In this document: in pieces, positions 10,400-22,939 of the stretch
Layout: each line of letters opens with the position of its first letter
Numbering within the stretch: the stretch's first letter is position 1
Source: a virus
Taxonomy: Duplodnaviria; Caudoviricetes
Virus record (IMG/VR): IMGVR_UViG_3300038393_001822
Location: 6,291-70,290 of that record
Length of the DNA: 64,000 nucleotides
Reading direction: 5' to 3' (one strand)
Made by a program: the position numbers and the translations under genes
The notes under the pieces: model-generated
Seen by the model: the letters and a program-made list of their open reading frames with translations, nothing else
The model's database searches: none
Told to the model about the DNA's origin: nothing

Positions 10400-11116
10400 A
10401 TGTTAAATTTTATCGGATGTGGAAGTGCTTTTAATACTGAATTAGGTAATAACGGGGCATTTATTAAGAAAGATAATGTACTATTTCTCATTGATTGTGG
10501 TAGCAGTACGTTCGGAAGAATTATGAAACATAATTTATTAGATGGTGTTGATTATATTTGCGTACTTATTACACATACACACGCTGATCATATTGGCTCA
10601 TTAGGAGATTTAATATTATACGGATACTATTCAATGGGTAAACTTGGGGAGCCGAATGTAAGAGTATTTGCTCCTTATGATTTAAAAATTAGACACCTTC
10701 TTAAAATGGTAGGTGTAGAAGAAAATACATACATGTTAACTCAAATTGACGAAAGTGCTGGATTTCATTATGGCGATTTTCATATAAGATTTAAACCTAT
10801 TGAAGTTACACACGTTCCAGAATTAAATTGTTTTGGGTATATAATCAATTATGAGGATAAAACAATTTATTATAGTGGAGATTCTAATATGATTCCGGAT
10901 CACATTTTAGATGATTTTAATGATGGTGAATTTGACTTATTTTATCAAGATACATGTAAAGCTCACTATGCAGGAAATGTACATTTATCTTTAAGAAATT
11001 TAGATGCTTTAATAGATTGGAATCTAAGATATAAAGTATTATGTATGCATTTAGATAACGGATTCAATAAAGGAGAAGCTGAAGAACTAGGTTTTAAAGT
11101 AGTTAATTCAATATAA
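10400..11116 (+). CDS. metallo-beta-lactamase-fold hydrolase, Apyc1-like cyclic-nucleotide phosphodiesterase
   Basis: GCGSAF, LIDCG, ITHTHADHIG, YSGDS, VHLSL, CMHL motifs in the order recalled for Apyc1. Confidence 0.75.
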   Translation: MLNFIGCGSAFNTELGNNGAFIKKDNVLFLIDCGSSTFGRIMKHNLLDGVDYICVLITHTHADHIGSLGDLILYGYYSMGKLGEPNVRVFAPYDLKIRHLLKMVGVEENTYMLTQIDESAGFHYGDFHIRFKPIEVTHVPELNCFGYIINYEDKTIYYSGDSNMIPDHILDDFNDGEFDLFYQDTCKAHYAGNVHLSLRNLDALIDWNLRYKVLCMHLDNGFNKGEAEELGFKVVNSI

Positions 11117-11573: not shown

Positions 11574-11777
11574 ATGAGTAATAATTATAGAGTCTTTAAA
11601 GATATAGACGGTGAAGTGAGTGAACCTCAAATAATTAATTATGAACATAAGTTAGACGATGTCGTCAATCGTTACTCATATGAAAACCAGTATAAATGTA
11701 CTGAAATAATTAGTAAAGACGGTGCGATAACTTATATTTTTAAACAAGGAAAGAAAGTATATACATTTGATTGGTAA
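11574..11777 (+). CDS. hypothetical protein
   Basis: ORF track; RBS aaggag. Confidence 0.6.
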   Translation: MSNNYRVFKDIDGEVSEPQIINYEHKLDDVVNRYSYENQYKCTEIISKDGAITYIFKQGKKVYTFDW

Positions 11778-11800: not shown

Positions 11801-11878
11801 ATGAAAAAAGCCATTGGAATAATAGCGTTTCTAATTGGTTTTATAGGTGTTATGGTAATCGAAAAATTATTTCTTTGA
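11801..11878 (+). CDS. 25-aa hydrophobic peptide
   Basis: MKKAIGIIAFLIGFIGVMVIEKLFL; RBS aaagga. Confidence 0.5.
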   Translation: MKKAIGIIAFLIGFIGVMVIEKLFL

Positions 11879-11933
11879 TGAACATTTCGAGAAAATAACG
11901 TCATAAAAAGAATACCTTTTAGTATCCATTTAA

Positions 11934-11942
11934 TGTTAAAAT
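11934..11942 (+). promoter_or_regulatory. extended -10 element TGtTAAAAT upstream of the MGIKPGG minigene
   Basis: TGn-TAAAAT; no convincing -35. Confidence 0.4.
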
Positions 11943-11961
11943 ATCATTAGGTGGTGATCAT

Positions 11962-11985
11962 ATGGGAATCAAACCGGGTGGTTAG
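11962..11985 (+). CDS. 7-codon minigene MGIKPGG, leaderless arbitrium-like peptide
   Basis: RBS aggtggtgatc at 11949-11959, AGGTGG 7 nt before the ATG; product resembles AimP C-terminus IPKPGG; own terminator. Confidence 0.7.
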   Translation: MGIKPGG

Positions 11986-11990
11986 TCATG

Positions 11991-12017
11991 GAAGTGCTGC
12001 AAAGTACTTCTTTTTTT
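11991..12017 (+). terminator. intrinsic terminator after the minigene
   Basis: gaagtgc-tgcaaa-gtacttc then T7. Confidence 0.75.
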
Positions 12018-12053
12018 ATAAAAAAAATAATGGGAAAATTTTAAAACTTTTTC

Positions 12054-12082
12054 TTGATTAAATATAATTAAGTTGATATAAT
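12054..12082 (+). promoter_or_regulatory. sigmaA-type promoter of the repeated AATTAATTT-spacer family
   Basis: ttgatt-17-tataat. Confidence 0.7.
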
Positions 12083-12201
12083 TACATTAACAAGTAAATA
12101 ATAAATAGGAGGTAAGGGAAATGATTAACCTTAAAAAGAATCCAAAAGTAAATTTAACTAAAAAGCCATTCGCAAGTTTAATTAAGAAATGAAATTCAAA
12201 T

Positions 12202-12429
12202 TTGATTGGAAGTGAAAAAATGGAATTTGTCATACAGTTATTAAAAGAAAAAAAGAAAGAAATTCAAAAGGAATATGAGTTAGAAACAGATTTTATAAAA
12301 ATTCATGCATGTAAACTAATGACAGAACAAATTGATAAAGCTGTTAAAACATTAGAATATGAGTATTACTGGAAACATTTAAGTGAAAAGCAAATTGATG
12401 AAGTAATGGGAATTAGAAAAATACGATGA
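12202..12429 (+). CDS. hypothetical protein
   Basis: ORF track; stop lies in a junction palindrome. Confidence 0.6.
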   Translation: MIGSEKMEFVIQLLKEKKKEIQKEYELETDFIKIHACKLMTEQIDKAVKTLEYEYYWKHLSEKQIDEVMGIRKIR

Positions 12430-15785: not shown

Positions 15786-16925
15786 TTGAAAAATAACTTA
15801 ACTTTTAAAGAATGGATCATGAATGAGGTAGCAAAACAACCTAGAGGTTACAGTGAAATCCTTGCAAAAGTAACTGGTTATAGTTCAGGAAGCGCCCTAA
15901 TGAAAGTTGTTCGTACAGAGAAAAAAGAGTTTGAAAAATTTGAATCAGTTATTAAACTTGTTAATCATTTAGCTGGTAAAGATTCAATTGAAATGATGAT
16001 TCATTACTCAAAAGAAATTAATCCGAATTGGGAAACAGCTAGAAACTTATTAGAATACTTTATCAGTAATGCACAATATGAAGCGTTTAATAATCTATTA
16101 GACCGAATGGAAGAGTGTACAAATAAAGAGAGCAAGGAATACGCTAAAATTTACAGAATGCAATATAAATACAAATTTGCAACTTCATATGAAGAGTATA
16201 ACAAATTAATTCGAGAAATTAGTGAAATTCATGTAACATTTCCAGAATTGAAAGTTTATAAAAGTATTTTAATAAATTATTGTTATTTTGAAATTAGAGA
16301 TTATGATCGTTTAAAATATATGTTAAAAGAACTTGAAGAAGATATTAAATTGATTGAAAATGAATTCATTAAAGAAATGTTTTTAATTAGGGTAAATGAA
16401 GTTAAGGCATACACTTATTTAAAGGCATATAATAAGCCTGAAATTGCCAGAGAATGTTGTGATTGGATTATTAATTCAAATGCGGCAAACGGTTTTAAGG
16501 CATATGCTTACTACTTAAAAGGTCATTCTTACATGTTCTCATCATTTGAAAATGCAATGGATTGTTATGAAAAATCAATTGAACTTTATAATGACAGAGA
16601 ACATGATGTTAAATGGATTAGAGAAGAAATAGAATTTGTTAAAGTTTACTGGGATAAAGAGATAAAACATAAATATGTCAGTAGTGAAGCACTATATCAA
16701 GTTAAAAAAGGGAATATTTCATTAGATGACTTCGATTTAACACCTGAATTTAGACTTTATTTAGAGGGTTATAGTGCAAAGAATGACAATAAATTATTAC
16801 TTTCTATGATTGGATACATCAAAATTAAGGATTTATTCTTGGCTAATTTAGCTAAGATTGAATTAATAAAAAATGGATACAACCAAGAAGTTATTTCAGC
16901 AATGATATCCATGAATGTAGCTTGA
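15786..16925 (+). CDS. aimR: arbitrium peptide receptor AimR
   Basis: 379 aa; N-terminal HTH, ARNLLEY...NKESKEYAKIY pattern, TPR-like body; followed by a peptide gene. Confidence 0.85.
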   Translation: MKNNLTFKEWIMNEVAKQPRGYSEILAKVTGYSSGSALMKVVRTEKKEFEKFESVIKLVNHLAGKDSIEMMIHYSKEINPNWETARNLLEYFISNAQYEAFNNLLDRMEECTNKESKEYAKIYRMQYKYKFATSYEEYNKLIREISEIHVTFPELKVYKSILINYCYFEIRDYDRLKYMLKELEEDIKLIENEFIKEMFLIRVNEVKAYTYLKAYNKPEIARECCDWIINSNAANGFKAYAYYLKGHSYMFSSFENAMDCYEKSIELYNDREHDVKWIREEIEFVKVYWDKEIKHKYVSSEALYQVKKGNISLDDFDLTPEFRLYLEGYSAKNDNKLLLSMIGYIKIKDLFLANLAKIELIKNGYNQEVISAMISMNVA

Positions 16926-16942: not shown

Positions 16943-17062
16943 ATGAAAAAAGGTTTAGTTTTAACTTTAGCAGTAGCAGTTGCTGTAGTTGGTGGATATT
17001 TATTAATGGGAGAAATGCATCACGGTTTTGTAATGGGATTAATTCCTAAGCCGGGTGGATGA
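16943..17062 (+). CDS. aimP: arbitrium pre-peptide AimP (39 aa)
   Basis: MKKGLVLTLAVAVAVVGGYLLMGEMHHGFVMGLIPKPGG; signal peptide and C-terminal KPGG; RBS aggaggtg. Confidence 0.85.
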   Translation: MKKGLVLTLAVAVAVVGGYLLMGEMHHGFVMGLIPKPGG

Positions 17063-20400: not shown

Positions 20401-21495
20401 ATGGGAGCTGCTGAGAAAGTAATTAAATTTGAAAATGAAAGTACTAAAATTTATGAGATTATTGAAGGGTGGTTTCGTGAACTTAATCGTAATAACCGGG
20501 ATTATGAAGATATATATGAAGGGGAAACTTCCAAAACACAAATATCTTATGAAACAGATGTAAGGTTATTCTTAAGATTAGTTAGAGATAAAACTGAAGG
20601 ATCTGAATTAGAGTATTTAACATATGATGAATTACAATTTACTCAGGAAGACTTAGAGGAATTCAAAGAAAAGATTCTTGATATGAGAAGTTCTGATGGT
20701 AAATACACTTATAAAAACAAAAGTTTAAATCGTAAATTATCGGCCATTAAAAACTTCATTAAGTATTTAGCTAAAAAGAAGTTAGTTAAGGATATATCAT
20801 TTTTACAATTGGTTACTTCAGAAAAAGAAAAAGATAATCATTATGGGGTACTTAGTATTAATGAAATAATGGTGGATATGGTTAATTGGATTATGACTTA
20901 TGAGAAACATAATAAAGAAGTGAAGAAATATTTGGTTCTTTTATCATTAGATACATGCATTAGAAAATCAGCTTTATTAAGATTGAAATGGTCAGATTTT
21001 ATAGTTGATGATAATCGAATAATATTAAAAGCTATAGATAAAGGTAATCATGAATTTCGAGCTGAGATATCAAATGAACTTTATAATGAGTTATTAACTA
21101 TCAAAGGGGATTCAGACAAAGTATTTGAAGGTATTACTAAAGAAGCAATTGATAAGATGATGCAACGGTACAGGGAGTTTTATAAAATTAATCCAGAACG
21201 GAAAATTGTGTGGCATAGTATAAGAAAAGCAGGTGTAACATTTCGGTTTAGGGTAACTAAAGATATATTAGAAGCTCAAAGAGCAGCCGGACATAAAAAT
21301 ATAACTACAACACAAATATATATAGAACATGAGAATTATGGTGCAATAGGTGCTGTCTCTAGTGCTGGCAAGATTGATAATGAATTATATAAGAAAGTTG
21401 ATCATGAGACATTATTAAAAGCTATTGATGAACTAAAGAAAGATACACAATTACTTTTGAACATGAAAATTAATGAGATTTTAAGTGCAAAATAA
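20401..21495 (+). CDS. tyrosine recombinase, SPbeta YopP-like, catalytic residues intact
   Basis: CIRKS (R), KGN (K), WHSIR (HxxR), AGH...TTQIY (H,Y); synteny with the yopQ/yopR-like genes. Confidence 0.85.
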   Translation: MGAAEKVIKFENESTKIYEIIEGWFRELNRNNRDYEDIYEGETSKTQISYETDVRLFLRLVRDKTEGSELEYLTYDELQFTQEDLEEFKEKILDMRSSDGKYTYKNKSLNRKLSAIKNFIKYLAKKKLVKDISFLQLVTSEKEKDNHYGVLSINEIMVDMVNWIMTYEKHNKEVKKYLVLLSLDTCIRKSALLRLKWSDFIVDDNRIILKAIDKGNHEFRAEISNELYNELLTIKGDSDKVFEGITKEAIDKMMQRYREFYKINPERKIVWHSIRKAGVTFRFRVTKDILEAQRAAGHKNITTTQIYIEHENYGAIGAVSSAGKIDNELYKKVDHETLLKAIDELKKDTQLLLNMKINEILSAK

Positions 21496-21583
21496 TAAAC
21501 AATTTTATTTACAAAATTATCTATAGAACTTATTATTAAAGATAAGTATGGGGATTATTATACTTTAAAGAGGTGGAAAATTT

Positions 21584-22939
21584 ATGAAAAAAGACAGAAG
21601 AGAATTAGAAGAAAATTTAATTAAAGTAATTAATTCATCTAAGATTAAGACTAAAAAACGTGACATTAACGACATAAAGAAACACTTAGCTACGTACGAT
21701 ATAATAGATGTTCAGAGATGGTTGAATGATCCTGAAGAAAGGATTCCTGAGTTAGACATTCGGGAACTTCTTCTATTCAGTGAACAGATTTTCGCAAAGA
21801 CTGGAGATTTATCAATTAATCCAGAAGATTATTTTACAGATGTTGAATTTAAGGAAGCCCGACAATTTAGTGGAAGTTTAGAGTATAAAGAAAATGAAAT
21901 GAGTTTCCCTTTAACATTTACAAATGCAACTGTAGTTGGTAGTAGTGCTTATATGGTAACTATGAGTATTCAAACGATCAACAAACTGTTGGATAACAAT
22001 TTAATTTATTATAATTTTGAAACGCAGCGTGAAGCTAAATTTGTTAAAAGGAAAGATAAGATTATTATTGAACCTACACTTAATAAAAACAGTGTGAAGG
22101 AGATTTCAGAACATCTTCTATCCAATACTTTGGTTCCGACCGTATTAGTCTTTAACTGTGAAACACGAAGCACAGAAGATCCTTCTGGTGAAGAATTAAT
22201 TTATGATAGTAAAAATATGGAGTTAACTGTTACAAAAGGAACTAGAATAAGTATAACCGATGGTTTTCACCGGATAACAGGTGCTAGGAACGCTCTTCAA
22301 ATTAATCCTGAGTTAGAATTTAATTTTGCAGTACTTCTAACCAACTATAATACGAAAAAAGCGCAGCAATATATGGCACAGATCAGTAAATCAAACCCTG
22401 TATCTAAAACAAGAATTCAGGAACTTGAAGCAAATAGATTTAGTGATAATGTAGTTCAACAATTAAAAGAAGAATCTGAATTAAAAGGTCGCATATCTCA
22501 AACTAATCGTATACATTCATTGAATAGAGAACTTTGTACGTATAACGTCCTTTCCGATAGTATAGATGAACAGTTTAAAATGGAAACAAAATTAGATGCA
22601 ATGGATATTGGAGATTATTTGGTTGAATTTTTTGACTTCCTTATTGGATCTTATCCAGAAGAATTTATAAATAATATTGAAGAAACACGAAAAACTTCAT
22701 TAATAAATGACAATAATATGTTTATTGGGTATATAGTCCTAGCTAGAAGAATGTATGAAAATAAAATTAAAGCAAAACAAGTAAGAAATATAATTAAAAA
22801 TATAGACTTTAGCAGAGAAGCATGGACAATACTAGGTGTGTTAGACGAAAAAGGGAATATAACAGATACAAATAAAACGAGAAAAGCTATTAGAGAATAT
22901 TTTGATAAACTAAATATAGGTATTGAAATCAAAAGATAA
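21584..22939 (+). CDS. DndB/ParB-like (DGxHR) protein, SPbeta YopQ-like
   Basis: ITDGFHRITG motif; synteny. Confidence 0.75.
   Translation: MKKDRRELEENLIKVINSSKIKTKKRDINDIKKHLATYDIIDVQRWLNDPEERIPELDIRELLLFSEQIFAKTGDLSINPEDYFTDVEFKEARQFSGSLEYKENEMSFPLTFTNATVVGSSAYMVTMSIQTINKLLDNNLIYYNFETQREAKFVKRKDKIIIEPTLNKNSVKEISEHLLSNTLVPTVLVFNCETRSTEDPSGEELIYDSKNMELTVTKGTRISITDGFHRITGARNALQINPELEFNFAVLLTNYNTKKAQQYMAQISKSNPVSKTRIQELEANRFSDNVVQQLKEESELKGRISQTNRIHSLNRELCTYNVLSDSIDEQFKMETKLDAMDIGDYLVEFFDFLIGSYPEEFINNIEETRKTSLINDNNMFIGYIVLARRMYENKIKAKQVRNIIKNIDFSREAWTILGVLDEKGNITDTNKTRKAIREYFDKLNIGIEIKR

What the first reader, a model, noticed from the sequence alone, without database searches (positions are those of the whole stretch)
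11934..12017. Stand-alone minigene encoding a leaderless arbitrium-like hexapeptide (MGIKPGG)
Seen: an apparently complete unit of about 80 bp, too small for normal gene callers: extended -10 TGtTAAAAT (11934-11942), near-perfect RBS aggtggtgatc, ORF ATG GGA ATC AAA CCG GGT GGT TAG (11962-11985), then a 7-bp-stem terminator with T7. The phage's AimP 5 kb downstream ends ...M-G-L-I-P-K-P-G-G (17033-17062). Established: Met before Gly is usually removed, which would give GIKPGG. From memory, EIKPGG is the arbitrium peptide of B. cereus phage Wbeta, one residue away. Inference: a cytoplasmic, secretion- and Opp-independent ligand. It could push this phage's AimR or a rival phage's AimR toward the lysogeny state (signal spoofing, superinfection defence), or act as an antagonist. 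I know of no described signal-peptide-less aimP mimic gene.
Basis: partly seen in the sequence, partly recalled or inferred. Interest (0 to 1): 0.92.

Follow-up and report, generated by a model that had tools for sequence, protein, structure and literature searches.

The report
Leaderless seven-codon arbitrium-like peptide gene
A seven-codon phage gene (MGIKPGG) is real and under selection. It is the smallest member of a rare, undescribed family of export-signal-free micro-genes whose repeat units look like the "arbitrium" peptides that other phages use to choose between killing and dormancy, so it may forge a rival's signal.

Summary
Window 11962-11985 encodes MGIKPGG behind a strong ribosome-binding site and ahead of a strong intrinsic terminator. 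The phage's own AimR and AimP (ending IPKPGG) lie 4-5 kb downstream. It is not chance: two other phages (L004, L007) encode the same heptapeptide with only synonymous differences (P about 4e-4).

New here: the gene is the minimal form of a rare family of leaderless Gly-rich micro-ORFs of 7, 12 and 35-53 aa. These are built from units such as G[I/T/P]KPGG, [D/E]PKPGG and DPPVG. In temperate Bacillaceae siphophages they sit between the ArpU-type late regulator and the terminase. Three complete genomes that carry them have no AimR.

The units match real AimP ends. DPKPGG is exact. Others are one residue from IPKPGG, EPKPGS, and the Wbeta-group signals TIKPGG and EIKPGG.

The best reading, unproven, is a ready-made arbitrium-type ligand that forges a signal or causes cross-talk. 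No binding or expression data could be obtained.

Earlier notes of this scan report similar leaderless signal mini-genes on other DNA. The literature I could search describes none.

The parts
11934..11942 (+). Putative extended -10 element TGTTAAAAT (no -35)
   Evidence: Read. Not listed by the sigma-70 scan, which requires a -35. AATGT plus an A/T-rich hexamer lies at the matching place upstream of family members L146, L149 and L156. Function is inferred only.
11949..11959 (+). Shine-Dalgarno site AGGTGGTGATC, 10 of 11 bases complementary to the Bacillus-type 16S 3' end that I assumed, 2 nt before the ATG
   Evidence: -12.4 kcal/mol, top 1% of all ATGs in the window. L004 and L007 carry the perfect 13-nt complement AAAGGAGGTGATC at the same spacing.
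11962..11985 (+). Seven-codon ORF MGIKPGG plus TAG. Predicted product after Met excision is GIKPGG.
   Evidence: The same peptide is encoded in L004 and L007, and the same terminal hexapeptide in L146 and L149. All differences are synonymous third-position changes. Met excision before Gly is established knowledge and was not tested.
11990..12017 (+). Intrinsic terminator: 9-pair stem (one G-U), 4-nt loop, then a T-run
   Evidence: terminator scan; -11.2 kcal/mol, z -4.15.
12040..12102 (+). Cluster of sigma-70-like promoters that restart transcription for the next genes, which makes the mini-gene a closed unit
   Evidence: four matches of 10 of 12, including TTGATT-17-TATAAT with TG.
15786..16925 (+). 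AimR receptor of the phage's own arbitrium system
   Evidence: PF22871 at E 3e-52. 48 homologues were found, all from metagenomes.
16943..17062 (+). AimP pro-peptide (39 aa, signal peptide) ending IPKPGG
   Evidence: called as a 39-aa gene 18 nt after aimR. Clade relatives end in DPKPGG, EPKPGS, SPKPGN, A/V/SPRPGG, DGRPGG and DPPMGG.

Best explanation
The 7-codon ORF is a real, translated, self-contained gene. It is the smallest member of a family of leaderless micro-ORFs whose units copy arbitrium-type signal peptides of the KPGG class.

Proposed mechanism (inferred, not shown):
1. The strong ribosome-binding site drives high output of MGIKPGG.
2. Methionine aminopeptidase removes Met before Gly, giving the hexapeptide GIKPGG with a free C-terminus. 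No secretion or pro-peptide processing is needed.
3. The peptide occupies the peptide pocket of an AimR-type receptor. The most likely target is a rival phage with an xIKPGG or xPKPGG signal. The phage's own AimR is a less likely target.
4. It reaches the receptor either in the producing cell or, after lysis and Opp uptake, in neighbouring cells. This biases the receptor-bearing phage towards lysogeny or continued dormancy.

Shown: anatomy, conservation, family membership, resemblance to real AimP ends, and absence of AimR in most carriers. Inferred: translation, Met removal, binding, and the direction of the effect.
For: 1. **Selection on the peptide.** The window, L004 and L007 encode MGIKPGG with at least 6 substitutions, all synonymous (P 3.9e-4). 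With the terminal GIKPGG of L146 and L149 added, it is 8 substitutions (P 3e-5). Only the ribosome-binding site and the ORF are shared. The flanks differ.
2. **Family.** 13 clusters of 35-53 aa micro-proteins (P0049-P0061), a 12-aa form plus MKDPGGY (L146), and the 7-aa forms. None has a hydrophobic leader. All are built from GG-ended units.
3. **Units match real AimP ends.** DPKPGG in P0054 equals the AimP ends of L170 and L175. EPKPGG, GPKPGG, GIKPGG and SIKPGG are each one residue from IPKPGG, DPKPGG, EPKPGS or TIKPGG. DPPVG resembles DPPMGG of L177. The count is 1 exact and 26 five-of-six matches, against a mean of 0.7 and a maximum of 6 in 1000 shuffles.
4. **Processing context.** By eye, several units are preceded by Y-A or Y-T (GGYA|DPKPGG), much as some AimPs have ..YLA|DPKPGG or ..VYGA|SPRPGG. 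I did not count this, and other units and AimPs have a different context.
5. **Length.** The minimal forms are Met plus exactly six residues ending at the stop codon, which is the canonical arbitrium length and position.
6. **Carriers without a receptor.** Carriers G001, G003 and G004 are each 100% complete and have no AimR (PF22871; the positive control scored 4.9e-54). No TPR-type receptor appeared among their larger ORFs.
7. **Same sample.** JGI sample 3300072490 holds both a micro-ORF phage (P0053) and an AimR phage (L174).
8. **Literature.** Non-cognate AimP peptides can act on other AimRs (bioRxiv 10.1101/2025.10.13.681337).
Against: - There is no experimental or read-level evidence of transcription, translation or binding.
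- GIKPGG was not found as the end of any natural AimP in IMG/VR. Only TAA and TAG stops were scanned.
- PMC8878798 reports that EIKPGG without its first residue is inactive, so position 1 matters. Gly there may not bind.
- Internal units of the long forms have no free C-terminus and would need unknown cleavage.
- Some long forms end in DPGTGGL or DKVGG. I found no matching AimP for those ends.
- The shuffle test is partly circular, because the family was found through the KPGG motif.
- Hosts of the window phage and of the siphophages are unknown, so a shared host is not shown.
Confidence: 0.5

Rival explanations
1. The micropeptide is real and acts in trans, but on a target unrelated to arbitrium. 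Examples would be a host enzyme, the Opp transporter or a defence protein that recognises Gly-Gly-ended turns. The likeness to AimP ends would then be convergent or coincidental.
For: - Carriers mostly lack AimR.
- The motifs SD[K/R]VGGY and DPGTGGL have no AimP counterpart in my sample.
- The window copy lies in a stretch of small accessory genes next to an Apyc1-like hydrolase.
- The long forms sit behind a conserved activator-type promoter at the head of the packaging genes, which suggests a late, abundant product of unknown use.
Against: - Five-of-six and exact matches to AimP ends are far above the shuffled level.
- The minimal forms have the hexapeptide length and the C-terminal position.
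- The window phage itself uses a KPGG-class signal.
Confidence: 0.22
2. The ORF is a cis-acting leader: translating it, and not the peptide, tunes read-through of the terminator that follows, as in attenuation or a lambda 6S/tR'-like late leader.
For: In L149, L156, L158 and L159 the order is promoter-like GGAAT-N14-CGTATATAAT, ribosome-binding site, micro-ORF, then a strong terminator 4-12 nt after the stop. In L156 terS follows with no room for another promoter. In the window the hairpin starts 5 nt after the stop.
Against: - L004 and L007 have no terminator next to the ORF.
- In the window the next genes have their own promoters and are not packaging genes.
- No alternative RNA structure is conserved. 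The hairpin that would hide the ribosome-binding site has z -1.96 in the window and about 0 in L004 and L007.
- Rfam gives nothing.
- Selection acts on all six residues, and unit order and number vary, which does not fit a positional stalling signal.
- From my own knowledge: Bacillus shows little transcription-translation coupling.
Confidence: 0.1
3. It is a decaying remnant, either the last unit of a once longer KPGG-repeat gene or a copied 3' end of aimP, and is now without function.
For: - Longer relatives exist.
- L146 looks like a long form split into MKDPGGY and MILNKVGIKPGG.
- The window ORF and its own aimP share ATGGGA...CCGGGTGG, including the rare CCG codon.
- A 25-aa signal-peptide-like ORF lies 82 nt upstream.
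Against: - The same 7-codon form with an intact strong ribosome-binding site is kept in three phages of two lineages, with only synonymous change.
- Joining the upstream 25-aa ORF to the mini-gene would need a frameshift and removal of two stops, and would give an ORF longer than any AimP in the clade.
- L004 and L007 have no such upstream ORF.
Confidence: 0.1
4. It is a chance open frame in an AT-rich spacer.
For: The ORF is very short, and short ORFs are common.
Against: - My own composition estimate gives about 2e-5 such ORFs expected per window.
- Only 2 K-P-G-G-stop sites occur in 70 kb, against 0 in the control.
- The ORF recurs with synonymous changes in other phages.
Confidence: 0.01

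Closest known systems
AimP, the arbitrium pro-peptide (Wbeta EIKPGG, J5a TIKPGG; this phage's own AimP ending IPKPGG)
   Same: The C-terminal six residues before the stop are of the KPGG class. The product is one residue from the Wbeta-group signals. It has the hexapeptide length and sits in a phage that uses arbitrium.
   Different: It has no signal peptide or pro-region and is not next to aimR. It has its own ribosome-binding site and terminator. It also occurs in phages without AimR. Processing and export would be unnecessary.
Phage morons (autonomous promoter-gene-terminator units between operons)
   Same: It is a closed unit with a putative -10, a ribosome-binding site, an ORF and a strong terminator, set between transcription units among accessory genes. 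Its distribution among relatives is patchy.
   Different: At about 80 bp it is far smaller than described morons, and its promoter is unproven.
Leaderless short hydrophobic peptides (SHP) of the Rgg systems and other RRNPP signals of streptococci
   Same: A small peptide signal gene without a classical Sec leader, acting on a cytoplasmic receptor of the RRNPP type.
   Different: SHPs are hydrophobic, are exported by PptAB, are processed, and are paired with their own Rgg gene. This peptide is hydrophilic and has no paired receptor gene.
mccA, the 7-codon microcin C precursor gene, and the lambda bar mini-genes
   Same: They are among the few accepted functional ORFs of about 2-7 codons with a strong ribosome-binding site. 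mccA is also followed by a hairpin.
   Different: No MccB-type modifying enzyme is nearby, and there is no sequence likeness. This comparison is from memory and was not tested.

Membership tests
AimP (arbitrium pro-peptide) | Encoded immediately downstream of aimR in one operon | tested here: not met
   The mini-gene lies 3.8 kb upstream of aimR and is closed by its own terminator. Carriers G001, G003 and G004 have no aimR.
AimP (arbitrium pro-peptide) | N-terminal Sec signal peptide and a pro-region | tested here: not met
   The ORF is Met plus six residues.
AimP (arbitrium pro-peptide) | Mature signal is the C-terminal 6 residues, matching the signal class of an AimR clade | tested here: met
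   GIKPGG compares with TIKPGG (J5a), EIKPGG (PMC8878798) and IPKPGG or DPKPGG in the window's clade. The match is five of six or four of six, never exact.
AimP (arbitrium pro-peptide) | The peptide binds AimR and switches it off | not testable with these tools
Leaderless KPGG-unit micro-ORF family (defined here: P0049-P0061, L146, L004, L007) | Hydrophilic, no leader, one or more units [G/D/E/S][I/T/P]KPGG | tested here: met
Leaderless KPGG-unit micro-ORF family (defined here: P0049-P0061, L146, L004, L007) | Position between the ArpU/DUF722 late regulator and HNH or terminase | tested here: not met
   Met in L004, L007, L146, L156 and L158. In the window the unit lies among small accessory genes, with no terminase nearby.
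Leaderless KPGG-unit micro-ORF family (defined here: P0049-P0061, L146, L004, L007) | N-terminal MS[D/E][K/R]VGG module | tested here: not met
   Present in all 13 long forms. Absent from the 7-aa and 12-aa forms.
Leader peptide / transcription attenuator | Conserved alternative RNA structures linking translation of the ORF to a terminator before a regulated gene | tested here: not met
   No conserved structure. There is no adjacent terminator in L004 or L007. Downstream genes in the window have their own promoters.
Known RNA families (Rfam 15) | Match to a curated covariance model | tested here: not met
   Only chance-level hits, with E of 2.5 or more.

The most novel reading that the evidence does not exclude
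Temperate phages, most of them without any arbitrium receptor, carry leaderless genes that are single copies or strings of other phages' arbitrium signals. In siphophages these are expressed from the head of the late operon and released at lysis. In this large phage the gene is an autonomous 80-bp unit. The peptides would force receptor-bearing rival phages into lysogeny, or keep rival prophages dormant. This would be inter-phage signal forgery, and the 7-codon MGIKPGG gene would be its minimal form, needing no step beyond Met removal.
Probability: 0.4. Interest if true: 0.9.

Novelty: new variant of a known kind. Interest (0 to 1): 0.78.

Why it matters
Arbitrium is the model for communication between viruses. 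It is described as a private channel of a receptor, a secreted pro-peptide and a target.

Genes that make the mature signal directly, sit apart from any receptor, and are often in phages that cannot listen would mean the channel is exploited by non-listening competitors. That would change how specificity, cross-talk and the limited natural peptide repertoire are interpreted.

The case is directly testable with a synthetic hexapeptide and purified AimR.

It also shows that functional genes of 7 codons exist in phage genomes and are missed by every gene caller. None of the assemblies of this phage has a gene called here.

Tried and rejected
- **Broken aimP.** I tested joining the 25-aa signal-like ORF at 11802-11879 to the mini-gene. 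The frames differ, there are stops at 11877 and 11920, the result would be too long, and L004 and L007 have no such ORF. Rejected.
- **Rfam.** Nothing above chance.
- **Hairpin hiding the ribosome-binding site.** Weak in the window and absent in L004 and L007. Rejected as a conserved feature.
- **Other pattern hits.**
  - L003, L005, L006 and L008 are internal AMGIKPGGWW in a larger protein.
  - L013 and L014 are ends of larger ORFs.
  - L015 and L016 are chance hits in GC-rich DNA.
  - L141 is the antisense frame of an acidic repeat.
  - The ..GNRQGIKPGG group is unexplained and on other DNA.
- **MSRKFMMIKPGG.** This 12-aa ORF, seen in about 10 metagenome contigs, lies in the 5' leader of an IS110-like transposase gene (assigned by eye from its N-terminus and multi-copy occurrence). 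Treated as chance.
- **Species-representative genomes.** No relevant hit.
- **Cultured phages.**
  - No DNA match to the window region.
  - Only short, unrelated DNA matches to the L149 region.
  - No tblastn hit for P0051. The low-complexity filter may hide one.
- **Flanking gene 11574-11777.** No relatives in IMG/VR.
- **AimR.** The single-sequence scan found nothing. The profile scan found 3 loci.
- **P0049.** ESM Atlas, Pfam and PHROGs gave nothing.
- **Profile search of 1.84 billion representatives.** Only 8 hits. P0063 is a repeat artefact.

Full report
**1. Observation**

The sequence is as described.
- A -10-like TGTTAAAAT lies at 11934-11942.
- AGGTGGTGATC lies at 11949-11959.
- ATG GGA ATC AAA CCG GGT GGT TAG lies at 11962-11985.
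- A hairpin at 11990-12011 is followed by a T-run to 12017.

The terminator scan calls the hairpin (2 sites against 0.3 expected). It folds at -11.2 kcal/mol with z -4.15.

The ribosome-binding site pairs with the 16S 3' end at -12.4 kcal/mol. Only 1% of all ATGs in the window, and 9 of 72 long ORFs, do as well.

The -10 has no -35 partner and the promoter scan does not list it. A cluster of good promoters follows at 12040-12102. The unit is therefore closed at its 3' end, and the next genes restart on their own.

AimR (PF22871, E 3e-52) is at 15786-16925. AimP at 16943-17062 ends MGLIPKPGG.

The window belongs to a 70,290-bp IMG/VR record estimated to be 47% complete. K-P-G-G-stop occurs only twice in it. 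Two independent assemblies of the same phage are identical across the region, and no gene is called there in any assembly.

**2. Not chance, and selected as a peptide**

A pattern scan of IMG/VR for M-G-I-K-P-G-G-stop found two further phage contigs.
- L004 is a 37,964-bp genome with terminal repeats, rated 100% complete.
- L007 is a 6.7-kb fragment.

Both encode the same heptapeptide behind AAAGGAGGTGATC, the perfect complement of the 16S 3' end, at the same spacing. Relaxing residue 2, or residues 2-4, added only ends of larger ORFs or GC-rich chance hits.

Among the three genes, all six or more substitutions are synonymous third-position changes (P 3.9e-4). With the terminal GIKPGG codons of L146 and L149 added, there are eight substitutions (P 3e-5).

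The flanks are unrelated apart from the ribosome-binding site. No RNA structure is conserved, and Rfam gives nothing. What is conserved is therefore the ribosome-binding site plus the coding sequence.

**3. What it belongs to**

A scan for G-I-K-P-G-G-stop turned up two proviruses from isolate genomes.

L149 is in Bacillus sp. OV166 (protein P0049, an NCBI hypothetical). It carries a 50-aa ORF, MSDKVGGYAGPKPGGYRLEDPGTGGLRGYTGTKPGGDKAKAIVQGIKPGG, followed by a terminator.

L146 has two consecutive mini-ORFs, MKDPGGY and MILNKVGIKPGG. The second has the same TTAGGTGGTG ribosome-binding site and the same GGA, CCG and GGT codons as the window, and is followed by a terminator.

Homology searches gave 13 clusters of 35-53 aa, P0049 to P0061. 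An exhaustive profile search of 1.84 billion representatives added nothing credible, so the family is rare.
- All long forms start MS[D/E][K/R]VG.
- They are modular strings of GG-ended units: [G/D/E/S][I/T/P]KPGG, DPGTGG, DPPVG and [K/R]VGG.
- None has a hydrophobic leader.
- None matches Pfam or PHROGs.

Context is conserved in the siphophages. The order is an ArpU/DUF722 late regulator, often a roughly 50-aa basic protein ending GA[I/V]RRK (phrog_3928 and phrog_20406), the micro-ORF, and then HNH or terminase.

The long forms share an upstream GGAAT-N14-CGTATATAAT followed by AAGGAGGG. It looks like an activator- or ECF-sigma-type late promoter. A strong terminator lies 4-12 nt after the stop.

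L004 and L007 hold the 7-codon form in this same neighbourhood. In the window the unit sits among small accessory genes, about 850 bp downstream of an Apyc1-like hydrolase.

**4. Link to arbitrium**

The literature gives EIKPGG for Wbeta and TIKPGG for the J5a clade. It also reports that EIKPGG without its first residue is inactive (PMC8878798; PMC11945551). I read TIKPGG directly from J5a aimP.

I collected AimP ends from the window's own AimR clade, which is known only from metagenomes and two isolate proviruses:

| Source | AimP end |
|---|---|
| window | IPKPGG |
| L170, L175 | DPKPGG |
| L133 | EPKPGS |
| L174 | SPKPGN |
| L130 | APRPGG |
| L131, L132 | VPRPGG |
| L173 | SPRPGG |
| L171 | DGRPGG |
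| L177 | DPPMGG |
| L176 | DPPMGGMPPIG |

The micro-ORF units compare as follows.
- DPKPGG is an exact match.
- EPKPGG, GPKPGG, GIKPGG and SIKPGG are each one residue from a real signal.
- A DPPVG unit resembles DPPMGG.

The count is 1 exact and 26 five-of-six matches, against a mean of 0.7 and a maximum of 6 in 1000 composition-preserving shuffles. This test is partly circular, because the family was found through KPGG. The DPPVG/DPPMGG parallel and the exact DPKPGG match did not come from the search pattern.

By eye, several units are preceded by Y-A or Y-T, much as some AimPs have ..YLA|DPKPGG or ..VYGA|SPRPGG. I did not count this, and other units and AimPs have a different context.

The minimal forms are Met plus exactly six residues ending at the stop. 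Gly at position 2 favours Met removal (established knowledge).

Three complete carrier genomes (G001, G003, G004) have no AimR, while the positive control scored 4.9e-54. No TPR receptor appeared among their larger ORFs.

None of four AimR-clade relatives, read over about 10 kb either side of aimR, carries a mini-gene. The gene therefore does not travel with the receptor.

One JGI sample, 3300072490, contains both a micro-ORF phage and an AimR-clade phage. A preprint shows that non-cognate AimP peptides can act on other AimRs at natural levels.

**5. Mechanism and rivals**

The best reading, at about 0.5, is a ready-made arbitrium-class ligand made without export or processing. It would act on AimR receptors, most plausibly those of other phages, either inside the cell or after release at lysis.

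For the long forms, the late-promoter position and the partial terminator fit abundant late synthesis and release at lysis. For the window copy, the autonomous unit would also allow expression from the prophage.

The rivals are:
- a trans-acting micropeptide with another target (0.22);
- a cis-acting leader or attenuator (0.10). This is weakened by the missing terminator in L004 and L007, the separate promoters downstream in the window, and the absence of a conserved RNA structure;
- a decaying remnant (0.10). This is weakened by the purely synonymous change and the intact strong ribosome-binding sites;
- chance (0.01).

Against the main reading:
- GIKPGG itself was not found as a natural AimP end (TGA stops not scanned).
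- Position 1 matters in Wbeta.
- Internal units lack a free C-terminus.
- Hosts are unknown.
- There are no expression or binding data.

**6. Novelty**

Full-text searches found no paper containing GIKPGG. The two arbitrium papers I checked for this say nothing about leaderless or orphan signal genes.

Earlier notes of this scan are AI notes that I have not checked. They report similar leaderless mini-genes carrying RGA- and RGG-type rival signals in SPbeta-like prophages, and an 11-aa MVLNKGIKPGG unit with the same TGTTAAAAT on other DNA. One of them prompted the unit-versus-AimP comparison in section 4.

I rate the finding a new variant of a known kind: an arbitrium signal gene stripped of its leader and its receptor. 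What this report adds is the KPGG-unit family and its place at the head of the late operon in AimR-less phages.

Noticed in passing
window 10400-11116 (+): A 238-aa metallo-beta-lactamase-fold protein matches the anti-Pycsar Apyc1 family (PF23023, 44 bits, just under the 50-bit cut-off; also PF12706). It is a candidate counter-defence nuclease about 850 bp upstream of the mini-gene.
   Followed up: no
window 11802-11879 (+): An uncalled 25-aa ORF, MKKAIGIIAFLIGFIGVMVIEKLFL, looks like a lone signal peptide or membrane helix. It lies 82 nt upstream of the mini-gene. I tested it as the front half of a broken aimP and rejected that.
   Followed up: partly
window 12122-12193 (+): An uncalled 23-aa basic ORF, MINLKKNPKVNLTKKPFASLIKK, sits behind a strong ribosome-binding site (AATAGGAGGTAAGGGAA). 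It is the first ORF after the promoter cluster that follows the mini-gene.
   Followed up: no
window 12202-12429 (+): The C-terminus of this 75-aa ORF (..HLSEKQIDEVMGIRKIR) weakly resembles (E 0.57) the GA[I/V]RRK small basic proteins (phrog_3928, phrog_20406) that neighbour the micro-ORF in L004, L149 and L158.
   Followed up: partly
L149:2829-2908, L156:9921-10000, L158:9921-10000: A conserved promoter-like element, GGAAT-N14-CG[T/A]ATATAAT then AAGGAGGG, lies directly upstream of the long KPGG micro-ORFs. It resembles ECF-sigma or activator-dependent promoters and may be the late promoter of these siphophages.
   Followed up: partly
protein P0064 (128 aa, from the profile search): A protein with a signal peptide carries six tandem repeats of SVMEAPRPGG. 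APRPGG is the terminal hexapeptide of the L130 AimP. It may be a secreted multi-copy pro-peptide.
   Followed up: no
L146:952-975 (+): A second mini-ORF, MKDPGGY, has its own AAAGAGGTGATACC ribosome-binding site about 40 nt upstream of MILNKVGIKPGG. The pair looks like a long KPGG gene split in two, or two separate peptide genes.
   Followed up: partly
L017, L064, L089, L109 and about 8 more metagenome loci: A 12-aa frame, MSRKFMMIKPGG, recurs in the 5' non-coding leader of an IS110-like transposase gene (assigned by eye). It occurs twice in one 333-kb contig. I judged it a chance frame inside the IS leader.
   Followed up: yes
L176:2216-2341 (+): This AimP of the same AimR clade ends in two tandem units, DPPMGG-MPPIG. 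This suggests that natural pro-peptides can also carry more than one signal unit.
   Followed up: no
window 20401-22939 (+): A tyrosine integrase is followed by a DndB-like protein (PF14072). The same pair follows the arbitrium module in relatives L131, L133 and L134.
   Followed up: no
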